Source: Rhizaria sp. SCN 62-66 (Eukaryota). From it: a stretch of 38,502 nucleotides of DNA. The position numbers were made by a program, and so were the translations under genes. The first letter of the stretch is position 1. Every line of letters starts with the position of its first letter. The DNA lies in the NCBI GenBank assembly GCA_001724265.1, contig MEDY01000296.1, forward strand, positions 1 to 38,502, written 5' to 3'. The notes below the pieces were generated by a model. The model did no database searches, was not told the DNA's origin, and saw only the letters and a program-made list of their open reading frames with translations. Of the stretch, positions 17,001-35,633 are shown in pieces.

Positions 17001-18359
17001 GTCCGTCGTCAGGCCTGTGCACGACGAAAAGACAAAGCAAGCAGGAATGAGCAATGGTGAATATGAGGTCGTCAGTCAAGTAGTGAGTATTGGGGGGAAT
17101 ATTGGACAACCACAGAAATAAAACAAACTCAAAACACAACTTATGAGTTCAGGACTATCCGTACCGAGCGAGCCATTGGAGTTAGTGATGGTGGACTTGA
17201 TCTTCGCGCCGGGCCAGGCGAGGACGAGCTTCTCTGTGTCGCGCACAGCAGCCGCAGCCGCGGCCGCAGCCGCCGCGTCAGCCGCCGCCGCGCTGTCGTC
17301 GTCGCCGTTGGCAGCAGCCGCCGCAGCCGCAGCGGCCGCCGCAGAGGCCGAGGCCGCGGCTGCCCCAGCCCCGCCGCCGCCGCCGCTGTTGGCACCGCCG
17401 CTGACGGTGCCCGCGGCCGTAGCGCTGACGGGCGCGATGCCGAACGCGGCGCGGAGCCCGAATGACGTGTCGACGCGGGCCTCCGAGAGGCGGTGGAGCT
17501 GCGCCACGAAGCGCGAGAAGGTGGCGTATGTGATCGCGCCCGTGACCGGCCGCAGCGCGTGGCCGGCGCCGACGACGAGCTGCCTGCCCGCCGCGGCCCC
17601 GGTCTTGTCCTTGTCCTTGTCCTTGTCTTTGTCGCCAAAGGCCGAGAAGACGCGCGACAGCACGCCCGAAACGCCGCGCTGCCGGCGCGCGGCCTCCTCC
17701 TCCTCCTGCTTGGCCTTGGCCAGCAGGCAGCGGTCCGCGACCTGCGCGAGCAGCGCGAAGACGGCCGCGGCGTCCGCGCGCGACGCCAGCCCCAGCGCGT
17801 GCGCGTAGCGGTGCCACGCGCACGCCGCGATCGGCACGTCGGGCCCGCCGCTGGGGCCGTGCGCGGGGTGACTGTGGGCGGAGTGACCGTGGGGCACAGT
17901 CAAAGAAGACGAGGAAGCTGAGGGAGCTGAGGCGGCGGCTGGCTGGGCATCGGCGAGCCCAGTGGTGAGGATTTGGTGAGTTAATGAGGTATGCGCAAAC
18001 GCGAAGCTCTGCACAGAGCGGATCGCGGTGAAATACACGAATTCAGGGAAGCGCAGCAGCGTGCTGTTTGGCTCGTAGCGGCGCTTGTCAGCGGCGTAGT
18101 CGATGTAGCGCTGACGGAGCTCCTCGGGGGTCGCGTCCAGCAGCGCCAGGCATAGCTGGAACGGGAGCTCGTCGGTCGAGCCCGCAGGCACGACCCAGAA
18201 CTGCTGCTGTTGCAGGAGCTGTTGCTGTGTCTGCTGAGACTGCGACTAGGGAGGGTTCGCAGAGGAGGCTGAGGCCGGGGCGGCAGCGGCTGATGCGGAT
18301 GCGGCCGCTGTGGACCCCTGCAGGGGCGGCGCGGAGGTCGACAGCGACAGAGACGACAT
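11069..18359 (-). CDS. Large GRAM/PH-like domain protein with C-terminal membrane hairpins (GRAMD4/MCTP-PRT_C-like), about 2345 aa; contains an in-frame TAG at 18246-18248
   Basis: Exons 18359-17165, 17014-14619 and 14515-11069; introns 17164-17015 (GTACGG..CAG) and 14618-14516 (GTACGA..TAG); total 7038 nt, in frame, stop TGA. Splicing creates the GRAM-like EKLVLAWPGAKIKSTITNSNGSLGLTTDRLLFRG. C-terminal PFSIQALVSNVSMLRRLVDPV..QWHRPWFTLSTLVFLL and LLRWHTPTTSMKFCRILTVVFLVLWFVPFRVIF resemble reticulon-like ER hairpins. The start at ATG 18359 requires reading through TAG at codon 38. The family call is less certain than the gene structure. Confidence 0.7.
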
Positions 18360-29014: not shown

Positions 29015-32000
29015 TTACAGCGCAGCTGGGATCGCGCTGGTACGCGAGACTGCGCCCGCAGGCAGCGGTGTGACAGGCGCCGCCATCCCGCCTGCCTCGA
29101 CCGTCGCGCCGCCACTCCCCACATTCGCGCTCGCATTGCTGGAGTGACTGTGGTCGCGGCTACTAGGGGGAGCAAAGCCAGGCGCCACGGCAGCGGCAGC
29201 GGCAGCGGCAGCAGCTGCGTCGGCCTCGGCCGCCGCCACGCGCACGACAAAGTCCCTCAGCGCCTCCTCGCGGCCGCCGCCCAGGAAGGCGCAGAACCAC
29301 GCCCCGCGCACCAGCCCTGACAGGCGCGCGCTGCAAAACGACGCGCCTGCTGCGTCCGCTCCAGCGCCAGTGCCCGCGACTGCAGTGCCCGTGCCTGCGC
29401 TCGCGCCAACGACGGCCGCGGTGCTGCCGCTGTGCGCGCCTTGCGGCGTCGGTGTCGGACCGCCGCCGCTGCCATCGAGCTCAAGCGCGTCCGCGCCGTG
29501 CTCCGCCGCGTCCAGCTCTGCCTCCGTGGCCATGCCGAGCGGGTCGTAGACGTCGAAGCCGAGAATCTTGCGCGCGCTGTCGCCCGCCGTGCGCAGCGCG
29601 CGCGCCGCGGCCCACGCCGCCAGCGCCACGTCGCCCGCCACTCGCCGCGACGGCGCCGCCACCGTCAGCGTGTCCTGCGCGCGCCCGCGACTGGCGTTGC
29701 CGGGACTACCGCCACTGTTCCCAGTGCTTCGGTACTCAGAAGCAGCATCTTTGTCGTTGCTATTGTTGTTGTTATTGTTGTTGCCATTGCCTTCGTCGTC
29801 TTCGTCGTCGTCATCGTCATCATCAGATGCCTTGCTGCCGGGCTTGGCACCGCTCTTGACGCCACTGCCGTTGCCGTTAAGGTCACTCGTGTTGCTGCCG
29901 CTGCCGCTGCCGCTGTCGCTGTGCGCGTCCCCGCCCGCGCGCGCCGCGGCCTGCGCGGCGGAACGCCACCGCCTACCCGCGCGCTGCGCCTCTACGTCCT
30001 GCGCTGCGGCTCTCGCGCTGCCGCCGCTGCCGCTGCTAGCGTCCCCGTTGCCGCCGCCGCTGCTGCTGCTGGGCAGCGCGCGGTAGGACGACCGCAGGTG
30101 CGCCTCGCGCGAGCGCAGCACCGCGATGCGCGCCGTGCGCTGAGCGAAGGCCAGCTGGTGCGTCGCGGCGTCCGTCAGCGCCTGTGCCGACTCCAGCAGC
30201 AGCGCAGGCTCGCCCAGCGCGCTGCGCGTCGTCGACGAAGACTGCAGCAGCGGCCGCGAGCGTGCACGGCTCAGCGACGCGTACCTAAGGTAAGTTTCAC
30301 AAAAACAAGGAACAACAAAACGTAAACATCAAATTGGAATAAACGGAATGAAATACAGTGTTAAAACACTACTTAAACAAAAATTATAATCTTTTAAACG
30401 ACAACCCACTATCGTAAAACTTCTAGTCGTGATTTACGTACAGGAATACATCGGCGAGAATGAGGCGCGCAAGGCGCACATTGACGAGTGCGCCGACCCA
30501 ACGCTGCGCCTCGAGACTCGACGTCAGCAGCGCCGCCAGCGAGGGGTACAGGCACTGACGCGAGGCGAGCGCGCGGGCCTGTTCGCGGGCGCGCGCGTCC
30601 TCGGCTGACTCGGCCAGGTCTGGCTCGCACTCGGACACAGGCGTCGAGGCTGCCGCCTGTGAGGACACATGCGCGGCAGAGTCCAACTCAGCGGAAGCCG
30701 CCGCCGCCGCCAAAGAGGCGTAATTGTCCGTTGCAATCGGAGCAGAGACAGGAGCTGACGCAGGAAGCGGCTGCGCCGGCGCGTGCAGACGCAAGTGTGG
30801 CCAGAGCGACGCCAGGGACAGCGGCGGCGGCGGCGTCAGCGACTGCGCGGCCGCCGCAGCGCTGCCGCTGTCTCCGCTGTTGTGGCTGTTGCGGCTGTCA
30901 CTGTGGGGCACTGCGACAACGGTCGACAGCCGGGAGAGTCCCGCGTAGAGCGGGTGCGCGCCCTAGTGGCGCAGTTCGTGCCGTGCCACGGGCCCGCTGT
31001 CGTCGTAGCAGCCCCTTAGACCGGGGGAGCTGGCGCCACTTAGACGGCGGCCAACGGCCCCAACGCTCTCCTGGGTCAGAGAGCCGGGACTACTGTCACT
31101 GCAGTCGTTGTCGCTGCCGCCAGCATTGCTCATGTCGCCGCTACCGCTGCAATGCGCGGCGCCGCCGAGGCCGCCGGCGCAGGGCGCGCCGTGGCATCCG
31201 ATGACCCAGGAGGGGTCGACAAGCAGCCTGCGTAGCCGCAGCCACGCGAAGGCGGCGCGCGGCAGCGGGCGCTGCCAGGCCAGAGGGTGCCGTGCCGAAG
31301 CCACGCCGCCCGCGCGGGGCGTCAGCGGCGGCGCGAACGCGTCGTGCCGCAGCACCCTCCCGGGGTCCGGCGGCGGTGCTGCAGACGACGGCGGGGGCTT
31401 TGTGTTGCCCGCGACAGCGCTCTTCACTGCAGCTGATGCTGTCGCGGTGGAAGAGTGCATCGGCGGCAGGGGGATTAGTAAGTTCGCGTACGATACGCTG
31501 AGAACGGCCGCAGCGCCGCCGCCAGCGCTAGTGGCAGCAGCGGCGGCGCCAGCAGCGGCGTCGGCTGCGGTCATGGGCACGCTGGCGGCAGCAGATGCGC
31601 CGGCAACGGCAGCGACTGGCGGCGCGGCCGGCGTGAGCACGACTGGAGTGATCAGGTAGTCTGCGATTAAACCTGCGAATACGCGCGGAAAATGAAATGG
31701 AAGGAAAAATCTCATCAGAAAAATGGTTAGATAAACATATGAACGGTGTGATCACTCGTAAATAAAACTGCCTCAATAGAATAATATGCTCGTGCAATTG
31801 CAAGCGCTCACTGAACGCACCATTGAGAACCCACGCCTTGGCGCCGTTGACCATAAGCATGAGCGCGTCGGTGTCGCCATCAGCCTCGCCGTCGCCGTCA
31901 CTCTCCGCCTCTGCGTCGACCTCCTCGCCCGGACTGGCGCCTGTGTCGCCCGCACTCGCAACAGCACCCGTCGCGCTCGCGGTCGCAATCGCGTTGACGC

Positions 32001-34239
32001 TTGCACCGCTGCTGTGCCTGGTCTTGTTCACATTAGCGCCGTCCGCTGCGCCGTGGTTTGCCGCGCCGCTCGCCGCGCCACTTGCTGCGTGTGCCTCGCT
32101 GTCTGCCGCGCTCTCGGCGGCGTACGCGGCCGAGGTCGCCGCCGTGGCGCTGCTGGCGGCGGCGGCGGCGCGGTCCGCGTGGCTCTCGGAGAACACGCCC
32201 TCGGTCGCGGCAGCAATCGCGGCCGCAGCCTCGGTCGCGAACGCGCCCAGCCCCGTCTGCGCCGACGGCGACGCGGGCGATGATGGCGACGCAGCGGCCA
32301 ACGCAGAAGAAGCTGACGTTGACGCAGAAGCAGATGCTGACTGCACAGATGCTCGTGCCGAGGCTCGCGCCGAAGGTTGCGCCGAGACTGCAGACGCCGG
32401 CGCTGACGCTGGCGCCGGCGTCGGTGTGGCCGGCGCGGGCGTGAGCGTCGACGCAGGTACGGCCACGGCAGCCGCATGCACCAGGCGAACAAATGGCAAT
32501 CCTTTCTGGCTCTGGCTCTGGCTAAGAGCGTCCACGCCGGCTCCCGCCGTCGCGGCCGCGGTGGCCGCCGCGCCCGCGCTCGCGCCTGCGGCGGACATAA
32601 GGTGTGAGTACACGTGACCCTCGGCGACCGACACTGCGAGCAGGGCTTCGCCGCGCAGCAGCGGGCCCAGCACGCAGCGCCGGCAGCGCGGCGCCTGGCG
32701 CGCGGCGGCCGCGGACGCACCGCACGACCACGGGGAGCGCGGGGCGGCGCGAGAGCCCAAGTCAGAGTGACAGCTACCGGAGCCAGAGCCAGGGACGGGG
32801 GTCTGACTCAGGTGGTACGGGCAGAGATGGGTCGGGGCCCCGCAGTAACCGTGGCCGTGGCCGTGGCCGTGGTGGGCGCGGCCAGGATCGCCAGCGCTAT
32901 CGCGAGCCGTATTCGAGCCCGTCGCAGCGCCAGACATCAGGCGACGGCGACGAGTGCTCCGAACAACACTCGCATCAGCATCAGTGTCACTATTGCCATC
33001 GTCGTCATAGTCGTCAAGATCGGCGTCGCGCACGCTCCCACTCGCCGCCGCACCGCCGCCGTCACTGCCCCGGCTCTGGCTCCGCTCAGCCTCCGCCTCC
33101 GCCTCTGCCTCCGCCTCGGCGGCCTCGTCCTCCTCAAGCAGCTGCCCCAGCGCGAGCGCGGGCCCCAGCAGCGCCCAGGCCAGCCCAGGCGGCAGCGCCG
33201 CGGCCACGGCGTCGACGAGCGCGCCCACGTGGAACGGGTCTAGGCTGCGCGCCGCGACGCCACCCGGCAGCACAAACCCGCGCCCGCGTCCGGCCTTCTC
33301 GCTGACGCCGGGCGGGGGCGGGGGACATAGTGGGCAGACGGGGGCCGCGAAGGCCCACTCGGGGAACGCGCGAGGCCTGCCTCCGCTGGCGACCGCAGCC
33401 AGCAGCCCGTGGCGGCCACAGAGCGCCGTCACCGCACGCGTCAGCGGCGCGCCCGCGGCCGGCAGCGCGGCGGTGGCGCCCCAGGCCCCCGGTCTAGCCA
33501 CCGCCGCCATCGCTGCCGCCGCCACCGCTGGTGCTGCGCCGCCGCTGCTGTCATTCACTGCGTTTTCATTCACGATGTCGTCCCTGTTGTCGTTCGCGCT
33601 CGCGTTTCCACCGCGCGCTCTAGCGCCCGCGCCCGCGCTGCTCGCATTGCCGACGTGCACGCCGCTGTAGTTGTTGCCCAGCGCCAGCAGCGCAGCGGCC
33701 TCACGCGCGAGCAGTCCGCGCGCGGCGGCGGCCAGCGCGGCGTGGCTCGGGCCGCGGAACGGCGACGGCCCGCGCGGGAACGGGTCCGCGTGCGCGTCGT
33801 CCACAAACGAAGGAACGCCCGGCGCCAGGCCCAGCGTGGGGGGCGCGCGGCGCGCGTTAGGGAGCGAACCCGCACCGCCTGGGGTCGGGGCCGTGCTGCT
33901 GTGGTGGCCGGCGGCGGCGGCGGTGTCGAGGTCGTAGACGGCGCCGCGCAGCCACGAGGGCTCGGCGAATGGCGAGGAAGACAGTGCGCAATGCGACGCC
34001 AGCGGGGCCGGCAGCGCGGGGCCGGCCGCCAGCGAGCGCGGGGGCGGCTGTGAGGCGCACAGGGCGGGGGCGTGCGCGACAGGCTAGCACGGCTGGGGGA
34101 CCGTTAGACGGGCGGGCGGGGGCGGCGGAACAGGGTACGACTGCAGCATGGCGGTGTCGTAGGTCGCTGCGGACGCATGCAAGCACGGATCACGCGCAGG
34201 CAAAAGCGCGGATGCGTCATGGGGCGTGACGGAGCTCAT
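29015..34239 (-). CDS. Highly divergent, insertion-expanded acyl-CoA dehydrogenase-like protein (about 1639 aa); contains in-frame TAGs at 34084-34086 and 30963-30965
   Basis: Exons 34239-31821, 31672-30442 and 30284-29015; introns 31820-31673 (GTGCGT..CAG) and 30441-30285 (GTACGT..TAG); 4920 nt, in frame if both TAGs are sense; stop TAA. ACAD-like blocks in the correct order: PFAEPSWLRG, SPFRGPSHAALAAAARGLLARE, LPGGVAARSLDPFHVGALVD, VLGPLLRGEALLAVSVAEG, MVNGAKAWVLNGLIADYLITPV, WLRLRRLLVDPSWVIG, QARALASRQCLYPSLAALLTSSLEAQRW, GDSARKILG, LVRGAWFCAFLGGGREEALRDFVVR. An alternative start is ATG 34149. Confidence 0.72.
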
Positions 34240-34748: not shown

Positions 34749-35633
34749 ATGTCCACCATTGCCCGTGACCGTCTTATGGCCGAGCGCAAGGTACGCTTTT
34801 CTGCATAATGCGACCCCGCAGAAACCTCCACTCTCGGCCCCTATCTCAACTGCTCTTGCTCGTTTGCATTTCTCTGTCGCTCGGTCCCCACGCTCTCTAT
34901 CACCGCCCTCTCGCCGATTTCTATTGCTTATCTCTCACATGCATCCACCTTTTTGCTTTGCTTTTACTCGCTTCCTGTTTTTCGCGCTTCTGCGCAGCGC
35001 TGGCGCCAGGACCACCCTCCCGGCTTTTACGCTCGCCCCGAGTCCGCCGCCGACGGGTAAGTCTCTGATCCTCTTAACCCGCCACAAATCACTCTCTAAC
35101 CATGTCAATATGCAATTATACTTTGTTTTACATCTCATCGCATTATTTTATTCTCCTCAAACTCGCATGTCTCTCCACGCGATCGCCTCACCTCACCCGT
35201 ACTCTTCTCTCGTCTTCTCTCACTCCTTAACATGCAAACACGTCCCGCGCCCCGCAGCTCGCTGAACCTGTTCACGTGGCGGTGCGGCATCCCGGGCAAG
35301 CCGAACACGGACTGGGAGGGCGGCGTGTTTCCCATGCGCATGGAGTTCCCCCCCGAGTACCCCGCCAAGCCGCCCAAGTGCGTGTTTGAGCCCGTGCTGT
35401 TCCACCCCAACGTCTACCCCTCGGGCACCGTCTGCCTGTCGATCCTGGTCGAGGAGAAGGGCTGGCGGCCCTCGATCACGATTAAGGACATCCTGCAGGG
35501 TGTGCAGGACCTGCTCGACGAGCCCAACGAGGAGGACCCGGCGCAGTCGGAGCCCTTCAAGCTCTACCGCAGCAACCTGCCAGAGTACCGCCGCCGCGTC
35601 AAGCAGTTCGCCGCCACCTGCCCGCCGCCATAA
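34749..35633 (+). CDS. UBC9: SUMO-conjugating E2 enzyme UBC9, 158 aa
   Basis: Exons 34749-34790, 34998-35056 and 35258-35633; introns 34791-34997 (GTACGC..CAG) and 35057-35257 (GTAAGT..CAG). Product [56 protein letters not shown]...[16 protein letters not shown]...; stop TAA. Confidence 0.97.

What the first reader, a model, noticed from the sequence alone, without database searches (positions are those of the whole stretch)
30963..30965. In-frame TAG in the middle of the ACAD-like fold, at or near the LCAD/IVD-type catalytic Glu position
Seen: ORFs 30963..31715 and 30423..30911 (-) share a frame and are separated only by this TAG (..GPVARHELRH*GAHPLYAGLSRL..), with GC-rich flanks and no GTACG-type donor nearby. 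ACAD C-terminal helical motifs (QARALASRQCLYPSLA.., GGGREEALRDF) and a further correctly phased intron lie downstream, so termination here would bisect the fold. Established: in LCAD/IVD-type ACADs the catalytic Glu sits in the helix-G (Q/H/L)ERL motif and the C-terminal motif reads GG(T/S)xE. Inference from a by-eye alignment: RHELRH* matches the ..NFNHERL/..ELPQERL segment, placing the TAG on that Glu. This makes it the most informative site for the codon meaning (favouring Glu or Gln), although the protein is very diverged.
Basis: partly seen in the sequence, partly recalled or inferred. Interest (0 to 1): 0.8.

Follow-up and report, generated by a model that had tools for sequence, protein, structure and literature searches.

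The report
Protist reading UAG stop as glutamate
This single-celled eukaryote appears to read the stop codon UAG as glutamate while keeping UAA and UGA as stops, using a dedicated tRNA, and the flagged codon is one ordinary example of that code rather than the active site of an enzyme.

Summary
The TAG at 30963-30965 (-) is real and in frame, at codon 1043 of a three-exon, 1,639-codon gene that also has a TAG at codon 52. The gene is a degenerate acyl-CoA dehydrogenase, but this TAG is not on the catalytic base. That column falls on Gln1196, 153 codons downstream. The TAG sits in a low-complexity insertion and says nothing about its own meaning. The meaning comes from the rest of the genome. 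Of 28 stops inside kinase-domain matches, 6 TAGs are exonic and all 13 TAA/TGA are intronic. TAG occupies eRF1 Glu107 (E in 108 of 117 homologues) and a kinase hinge Glu (39 of 52). One tRNA gene with a CUA anticodon has a tRNA-Glu acceptor stem. Genes end in TAA or TGA. Best reading: nuclear code UAG=Glu, UAA/UGA=stop (about 0.85; Gln about 0.07). My five literature searches on code variants did not show this combination. UAG is used very sparingly (0 of 2,146 Glu codons in dyneins), and eRF1 needs its own UAG read through. Not shown: transcript cover of this codon, proteomics, the organism's lineage.

The parts
30963..30965 (-). In-frame TAG, codon 1043 of the ACAD-like gene; inferred Glu; lies in a low-complexity insertion
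34084..34086 (-). Second in-frame TAG of the same gene, codon 52; the next Met after it is residue 244
   Evidence: an identical RNA-library contig includes it with only 20 nt on one side
31821..34239 (-). Exon 1 (ATG at 34239 is inferred); ACAD N-domain block at residues 324-359
31673..31820 (-). Intron 1, GT-AG, 148 nt, 40% GC; splicing joins the best-conserved ACAD beta-domain motif (residues 791-824)
30442..31672 (-). Exon 2: rest of the beta-domain, long insertion with the TAG, start of helix G
30531..31178 (-). Ala/Ser/Gly-rich insertion (residues 972-1187) that holds the TAG; bounds approximate
   Evidence: the upstream beta-strand block ranked only 3rd
30504..30506 (-). Gln1196, the true equivalent of the LCAD/IVD-type catalytic Glu
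30285..30441 (-). Intron 2, GT-AG, 157 nt, 30% GC; the helix G/H alignment runs across it in frame
29015..30284 (-). Exon 3 ending in TAA; C-terminal ACAD motif at residues 1542-1565 (29311-29240) has Gly at the MCAD-type catalytic column
18246..18248 (-). In-frame TAG near the start of a neighbouring gene, beside a Gln-rich stretch; probably the same code
   Evidence: no domain covers it

Best explanation
The organism uses a variant nuclear code in which UAG is a rare glutamate codon and UAA and UGA remain stops. Shown in sequence: exonic in-frame TAGs in conserved genes, one tRNA gene with a CUA anticodon and a tRNA-Glu-type body, gene ends in TAA/TGA, and an eRF1 with unusual N-domain substitutions. 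Inferred: the tRNA is charged by glutamyl-tRNA synthetase and reads UAG only (C34 cannot read UAA), and eRF1 has lost most of its UAG response. The window's TAG is one such codon in a tolerant insertion of a probably inactive ACAD-fold protein.
For: Kinase control: 28 distinct stops inside domain matches; 6 of 15 TAG exonic, 0 of 13 TAA/TGA exonic. eRF1, the only eRF1 found (the other hit reads as pelota by my inspection), has TAG at human E107: E 108, D 8, V 1, Q 0 of 117 homologues. Kinase hinge site: E 39, D 9, Q 0 of 52. UBE2J1 site: D 20, S 6, E 5, Q 0 of 38 aligned. Pfam bits summed by hand over 8 sites: E 522.5, Q 518.4, K 517.1, D 516.1, S 512.0, Y 504.7, L 501.9, W 499.4. tRNA(CUA) at G000:C84 forms a full cloverleaf, scores 58 bits against RF00005, is closest to the genome's tRNA-Glu(CUC) (47 of 73 identical, best score of 17 tRNAs compared), and shares U1:A72-C2:G71-C3:G70 with both Glu isoacceptors, unlike tRNA-Gln. 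Coding-to-noncoding transitions: TAA 32, TGA 24, TAG at most 2 plausible. The eRF1 TAG is identical in another assembly (L195). In Gln runs TAG is 1 of 446 against CAA 70.
Against: Few informative sites: E is best or tied at 5 of 8 and leads Q by only 4.1 bits. Only 8 residues were tried at 7 of the sites (16 at the eighth). Against own paralogues TAG faces Q twice (ubiquitin-like L189; L053 against L054), K once and D once, and several TAGs sit in Gln-rich runs. The closest eRF1 relative (P0006, 84%) has V, not E, at 107. Human eRF1 T32S works at all three stops in vitro (PMC3632111), so that change does not explain the loss. No RNA contig bridges any TAG by the tool's 31-nt rule. UAG is absent from 2,146 dynein Glu codons.
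Confidence: 0.85

Rival explanations
1. UAG encodes glutamine, as in Iotanema spirale and two phyllopharyngean ciliates, through an undetected tRNA-Gln(CUA) or glutaminylation of the Glu-derived tRNA.
For: TAG faces Q in two paralogue comparisons and occurs in Gln-rich runs. Q is second in the Pfam sum. Amber tRNAs with G73 are often glutaminylated in E. coli (recalled, no call).
Against: Q is absent from the eRF1, kinase-hinge and UBE2J1 columns (0 of 117, 0 of 52, 0 of 38). No match to the anticodon pattern resembled tRNA-Gln, and 0 of 17 candidates fetched were called tRNA (26 further non-tRNA-assigned matches not fetched). CAG-to-TAG transitions giving tolerated Q-to-E changes would explain the Q-facing sites (inference).
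Confidence: 0.07
2. UAG is still mainly a stop. The CUA tRNA is a weak natural amber suppressor, and TAG-containing genes, this one included, are leaky or are pseudogenes.
For: UAG is very rare as a sense codon; one tRNA gene against 8 tRNA-Glu(CUC) matches; 2 TAGs (L063, L165) could be gene ends; the ACAD-like gene lacks catalytic residues.
Against: The only eRF1 found needs read-through at codon 111 of 441. TAG is nearly absent from gene ends. Exonic TAA/TGA never occur in the kinase set, and the window gene has no frameshift, TAA or TGA in 1,639 codons, unlike a decaying pseudogene.
Confidence: 0.05
3. The focal TAG is removed by a tiny intron, by RNA editing, or is an assembly error, with no code change needed at this site.
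For: The site is in an insertion that could lose nine codons without harm; no RNA cover.
Against: The candidate is 27 nt and 67% GC against 134-292 nt and 30-52% GC for five measured introns. The TAG-terminated ORF is on 5 contigs. Other TAGs lie in gap-free conserved alignments.
Confidence: 0.04
4. One reading: the TAG encodes the catalytic Glu of an active LCAD/IVD-type dehydrogenase.
For: By-eye likeness only; Glu is the likely meaning of TAG.
Against: The helix-G profile places the catalytic column on Gln1196 (rank 1 of about 1,600) and the TAG at rank 31-282; three HMMs give the same alignment.
Confidence: 0.03

Closest known systems
Oligohymenophorea sp. PL0344 code (UAA=Lys, UAG=Glu; PMC10553269, passages read)
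   Same: UAG=Glu, with tRNA-Sup(CUA) most similar to tRNA-Glu
   Different: There UAA is also a sense codon, UAG is common (10,160 Pfam-aligned codons) and 10 CUA tRNA genes exist. Here UAA is the main stop, UAG is very rare and one CUA tRNA was found.
UAG-only reassignments: rhizarian exLh (Leu) and Iotanema spirale (Gln) (PMC5304391); phyllopharyngean ciliates (Leu, Gln), Protocruzia tuzeti (Gln), Scotinosphaera (Ser) (as listed in PMC11687900; passages read)
   Same: UAG sense while UAA stays a stop; altered eRF1 N-domain (T32G in I. spirale)
   Different: None of those listed is Glu. Usage here is far lower (UAG is about 8% of Gln codons in I. spirale).
Blastocrithidia and peritrich UAR=Glu codes (PMC12153298, PMC11687900; passages read)
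   Same: tRNA-Glu-derived CUA tRNA; reassigned codons avoided in highly expressed genes (Blastocrithidia)
   Different: Both UAA and UAG are Glu there; Blastocrithidia has a UUA tRNA, and none was found here.
Cytochrome b5-fused acyl-CoA dehydrogenases with the helix-G ERW motif (own paralogues L032, L034, L037; P0183)
   Same: Four collinear blocks from the N-domain to the C-terminal helices, including the Trp after the catalytic column
   Different: Catalytic Glu replaced by Gln, about 1,200 residues of low-complexity insertions, no Pfam match; no b5 domain detected by Pfam.
Plant eRF1 autoregulation by readthrough and NMD (PMC5397192; search listing and start of abstract only)
   Same: eRF1 output tied to termination efficiency on its own mRNA (here only a hypothesis)
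   Different: Here the sensor would be an in-frame reassigned codon inside the N-domain coding sequence.

Membership tests
Nuclear codes with UAG reassigned and UAA kept as stop | In-frame UAG in conserved coding sequence, not shared by UAA/UGA | tested here: met
   6 of 15 TAG and 0 of 13 TAA/TGA exonic in kinase matches; eRF1 and UBE2J1
Nuclear codes with UAG reassigned and UAA kept as stop | UAA and UGA terminate genes | tested here: met
   32 TAA and 24 TGA coding-to-noncoding transitions, a few of them intron donors; eRF1 ends in TAA
Nuclear codes with UAG reassigned and UAA kept as stop | UAG no longer terminates | tested here: inconclusive
   Of 11 TAG rows, 6 continue as coding, 3 stay open for 16 or more codons, 2 could be ends or split codons at donors; under 3% of the genome was read
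Nuclear codes with UAG reassigned and UAA kept as stop | Cognate tRNA with CUA anticodon | tested here: met
   G000:C84, L100 1490-1562 (-), cloverleaf followed by a T-run; expression not tested
Nuclear codes with UAG reassigned and UAA kept as stop | No tRNA with UUA anticodon | tested here: inconclusive
   None found by patterns; 17 of 43 unassigned matches checked, 0 tRNAs; intron-bearing tRNAs could be missed
Nuclear codes with UAG reassigned and UAA kept as stop | UAG present in mature mRNA | tested here: inconclusive
   No cover at 30963; one RNA-library contig includes 34084-34086 with 20 nt on one side
Nuclear codes with UAG reassigned and UAA kept as stop | Residue confirmed in protein | not testable with these tools
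   needs mass spectrometry
UAG=Glu codes (PL0344, peritrichs, Blastocrithidia) | UAG at conserved Glu columns | tested here: met
   eRF1 E107 108 of 117, kinase hinge 39 of 52; only two strongly conserved columns available
UAG=Glu codes (PL0344, peritrichs, Blastocrithidia) | CUA tRNA most similar to tRNA-Glu | tested here: met
   Best score to Glu(CUC), 47 of 73; His and Glu(UUC) next; Gln 38-40 of 73
UAG=Glu codes (PL0344, peritrichs, Blastocrithidia) | UAA also a sense codon | tested here: not met
   TAA is the commonest gene end and never exonic in the kinase set
Acyl-CoA dehydrogenases | Collinear N, beta and C domain homology | tested here: met
   28.9 bits in four ordered blocks with a five-sequence profile; only 1.7 bits, level with the best of 200 shuffles, with a broad profile, whose best domain still scored 11.8 against 1.5
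Acyl-CoA dehydrogenases | Pfam ACAD domains over cut-off | tested here: not met
   No hit for three exons or ten blocks; not among 14 PF00441 matches in the genome
Acyl-CoA dehydrogenases | Catalytic Glu on helix G (LCAD/IVD) or in the C-terminal loop (MCAD/SCAD) | tested here: not met
   Gln1196 and Gly at the two columns; which columns are catalytic is established knowledge, recalled
Acyl-CoA dehydrogenases | FAD binding and activity | not testable with these tools
   needs protein
Pyrrolysine decoding | tRNA-Pyl body plan | tested here: not met
   ARAGORN names it Pyl from the anticodon; the body is a standard cloverleaf with D-loop GG and T-loop TTC; tRNA-Pyl features recalled
Pyrrolysine decoding | PylRS and pyl biosynthesis genes | not tested
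   no genome searches left

The most novel reading that the evidence does not exclude
UAG is still contested between a single-copy tRNA-Glu(CUA) and a partly UAG-competent eRF1, and the UAG kept in eRF1's own N-domain coding sequence acts as a feedback sensor: excess or UAG-responsive eRF1 truncates its own synthesis. That would be a living ambiguous-intermediate stage of stop-codon reassignment with a built-in ratchet. Basis: one TAG among 31 Glu codons of a gene with GC3 0.90, against none among 2,146 in dyneins. Against: chance is not excluded (roughly 1 in 10 at the kinase rate, my estimate), and the closest relative has Val there.
Probability: 0.2. Interest if true: 0.9.

Novelty: new variant of a known kind. 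Interest (0 to 1): 0.78.

Why it matters
UAA and UAG almost always change meaning together, and the few uncoupled nuclear codes listed in the papers read give Leu, Gln or Ser for UAG, or make UAA a sense codon too. UAG=Glu with UAA as the main stop would be a further variant. It comes with a whole genome, the decoding tRNA and an eRF1 with a short list of candidate changes (T32S, M34V, G57S, T58K, L124M, L126M, K130Q), which makes the question of how eRF1 drops UAG but keeps UAA directly testable. The codon is so rare that standard annotation splits the affected genes, as public ORF calls do here (P0001, P0002), so similar codes could be overlooked elsewhere.

Tried and rejected
Pfam on three exons and ten blocks, PDB search of exon 2, hhalign against own ACADs: no ACAD signal. 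phmmer of exon 2 over 1.84 billion representatives returned only the gene's own two half-ORFs, so no orthologue shows the residue at this site. Eleven dynein heavy chains: no exonic TAG; TAGs in those frames are intronic. RNA and DNA contigs: no cover of 30901-31091; most joints and differences listed at 88% likeness come from repeats or other organisms. Runs X1 and X2 hold exon pieces identical to the window, and X1 shows no depth in the two intron bins, which proves nothing by itself. The genome-wide codon count was swamped by antisense shadow frames and is not used as a rate. A single-sequence fold of the eRF1 N-domain was uninformative (pLDDT 38). The tRNA's minimum-energy fold is not the cloverleaf (z -1.5), as is common for unmodified tRNA. 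Thirteen further TAG-bearing stretches had no Pfam domain. Lineage: not settled. The only SSU rRNA found is AT-rich and may belong to another organism. I considered sainouroid Rhizaria but have no test for it (one search gave nothing usable). Earlier scan notes: none. No structure- or language-model-based look-alike search of the window protein was obtained, so the ACAD assignment rests on sequence profiles only.

Full report
Setting. The window is a whole contig (G000:C296) of a 34.9-Mb, 714-contig eukaryotic assembly with GC-rich exons and AT-rich GT-AG introns. Eleven dynein heavy-chain genes point to a flagellate (inference). An RNA run that holds part of the gene is labelled activated sludge metagenome. 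The lineage is not established.

Observation. 30963-30965 reads TAG on the minus strand, between two open stretches of one frame. Flanks are 72-73% GC. The gene has three exons (34239-31821, 31672-30442, 30284-29015) and 1,639 sense positions, with TAG at codons 52 and 1043 and a final TAA. Public ORF calls stop at the same TAG on 5 contigs (P0001) and restart after it on 7 (P0002). The 27-nt intron alternative is 67% GC, against 134-292 nt and 30-52% GC for five measured introns. Neither run laid covers the codon.

The protein. Pfam, PDB and hhalign give nothing, and phmmer finds only the gene's own halves. With exons joined in a script, a broad ACAD profile finds the beta-domain motif across intron 1 (best domain 11.8 bits, best shuffle 1.5), although its whole-sequence score of 1.7 bits ties the best of 200 shuffles. 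A five-sequence profile of cytochrome b5-type ACADs scores 28.9 bits in four ordered blocks (residues 324-359, 794-818, 1193-1267, 1422-1471), with the best reported shuffle at -0.7. That profile was chosen after I noticed the likeness, so its score is somewhat favourable. The helix-G column that carries the LCAD/IVD catalytic Glu aligns to Gln1196, rank 1 of about 1,600 placements in four scorings. The TAG read as E ranks 31st to 282nd. So the TAG lies in an insertion, and the protein is probably a catalytically dead ACAD-fold paralogue (inference). The genome also has conventional ACADs, including one with the IVD-type motif intact (family labels are mine).

TAG is read through across the genome. 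I inspected every stop listed inside kinase-domain matches of two searches (2 of 152 rows were not listed). Of 28 distinct stops, all 13 TAA/TGA follow a donor or lie in AT-rich intron sequence, 9 TAGs are intronic or acceptors, and 6 TAGs are exonic (classification by inspection). Further exonic TAGs occur in UBE2J1, a ubiquitin-like domain and eRF1. Gene ends in the fetched sequence are TAA (32 rows with noncoding-like downstream sequence) and TGA (24), a few of which are really intron donors. Of 11 TAG rows, 6 continue as coding, 3 stay open for 16 or more codons, and 2 might be ends. In 140 kb fetched without regard to gene content plus three kinase loci, 3 of 11 TAG, 0 of 17 TAA and 0 of 18 TGA with coding upstream continued as coding.

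Which residue. eRF1's TAG aligns without gaps to human E107: E 108, D 8, V 1 of 117 homologues (3 longer hits left out). A kinase hinge TAG faces E in 39 and D in 9 of 52 own kinases. The UBE2J1 column has D 20, S 6, E 5, G 4, T 2, K 1 of 38. Three looser kinase columns have E 13 of 53, 10 of 52 and 4 of 49, with Q 2 in each. Pfam bits summed over eight sites are E 522.5, Q 518.4, K 517.1, D 516.1, S 512.0, Y 504.7, L 501.9, W 499.4. Leu, Tyr and Trp are excluded; Gln trails narrowly. Against Glu: TAG faces Q in the genome's ubiquitin and in one paralogue pair, K and D at two other paralogue sites, some TAGs lie in Gln-rich runs, and the closest eRF1 relative P0006 has V107. CAG-to-TAG transitions tolerated as Q-to-E would produce the Q-facing cases (inference), and in Gln runs TAG is 1 of 446 against CAA 70 and GAG 2.

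Machinery. One tRNA gene with a CUA anticodon lies on G000:C84. It forms a standard cloverleaf followed by a T-run and scores 58 bits to Rfam tRNA. It is closest to tRNA-Glu(CUC) (47 of 73 identical, ungapped) and shares the U1:A72, C2:G71, C3:G70 stem of both Glu isoacceptors, while the genome's tRNA-Gln begin G1:C72. CUC to CUA is one base. The searches found 8 Glu(CUC) matches and 1 Glu(UUC), and no Gln-like CUA or any UUA tRNA (53 matches against 68 in the reversed control; 17 of 43 unassigned ones fetched, none a tRNA). tRNA-Glu-derived CUA tRNAs are the known decoders in PL0344 (PMC10553269) and Blastocrithidia (PMC12153298). eRF1 differs from near-invariant columns at T32S, M34V, G57S, T58K, L124M, L126M and K130Q. 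T32 contacts the G of UAG (PMC5304391) and K58 matches the Tetrahymena KATNIKD motif, but human T32S behaves normally in vitro (PMC3632111). The cause of UAG loss is therefore not identified. P0006 shares T58K and L126M but keeps T32 and G57.

Usage. UAG is rare: 0 of 2,146 Glu codons in 34,574 dynein codons and 6 in the kinase domains, roughly 0.3% of their Glu codons by my estimate. This fits selection against a codon served by one tRNA gene, or residual competition with eRF1. eRF1 itself carries one at codon 111 of 441, identical in another assembly (L195; possibly the same sample). Full-length eRF1 thus depends on read-through.

Comparison and novelty. PMC11687900 (passages) lists UAG-only reassignments to Leu, Gln and Ser, and UAG=Glu only with UAA=Lys or UAA=Glu. 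Searches (open-access PMC and bioRxiv only) listed no paper with UAG=Glu and UAA as stop in title or abstract start; subscription papers were not searchable. I read passages of five papers (PMC11687900, PMC5304391, PMC10553269, PMC12153298, PMC3632111), only the listing of PMC5397192, and no supplements. It works like the exLh/Iotanema type of uncoupled reassignment, with the PL0344-type tRNA, and matches neither code exactly.

Verdict. Observation confirmed. The real finding is genome-wide: UAG=Glu, UAA/UGA=stop, confidence about 0.85, a new variant of a known kind, interest 0.78.

Noticed in passing
L046:1594-1596 (-) (G000:C63): The eRF1 gene itself has an in-frame TAG at human E107 in an otherwise strongly codon-biased gene; possible autoregulation.
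   Followed up: partly
L100:1490-1562 (-) (G000:C84): Single tRNA gene with CUA anticodon and tRNA-Glu-type acceptor stem.
   Followed up: yes
P0006 (JGI/IMG protein): Closest eRF1 relative (84%) shares T58K and L126M, keeps T32 and has Val at 107; its genome may show an earlier or parallel stage of the code change.
   Followed up: partly
L001:1501-5945 (G000:C706): SSU rRNA of 4.4 kb on a 41% GC stretch with four group I intron matches and an extra hairpin near 1985-2010 that recalls the heterolobosean helix 17-1 (recalled label); may come from a co-assembled organism.
   Followed up: partly
L187, L188, L190, L191, L194: Ubiquitin genes seen are divergent monomers with a two-residue N-terminal extension and a short C-terminal tail; no polyubiquitin junction was seen, and some copies look collapsed or mis-assembled.
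   Followed up: no
L189 (G000:C681:1512-4727): Ubiquitin-like domain fused to another domain in a 629-codon frame, on a stretch with three in-frame TAGs and no intron-like layout; possibly a mobile or viral-type element using the host code.
   Followed up: no
L053, L054, L055: A family of related kinases with repeat-like C-terminal regions carries several in-frame TAGs each, more than most genes.
   Followed up: partly
window 29015-34239 (-): ACAD-fold protein with Gln at the catalytic column and about 1,200 residues of low-complexity insertions; likely a pseudoenzyme, role unknown.
   Followed up: partly
window 214-37200: Neighbouring genes by Pfam: NUDIX, ubiquitin hydrolase, PAQR/HlyIII, DUF639/PRT_C-like, COQ5, CID+RRM, NOL10, MaoC-like dehydratase, CSTF2; a ubiquitin-conjugating-enzyme-like gene near 34750-35633 by eye. 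Their frames show no exonic TAG except at 18246-18248.
   Followed up: partly
L046 first intron: eRF1 intron 1 has an unusual donor (GTCCG) and is 52% GC; P0006's predicted N-terminus suggests an intron at the same place.
   Followed up: no
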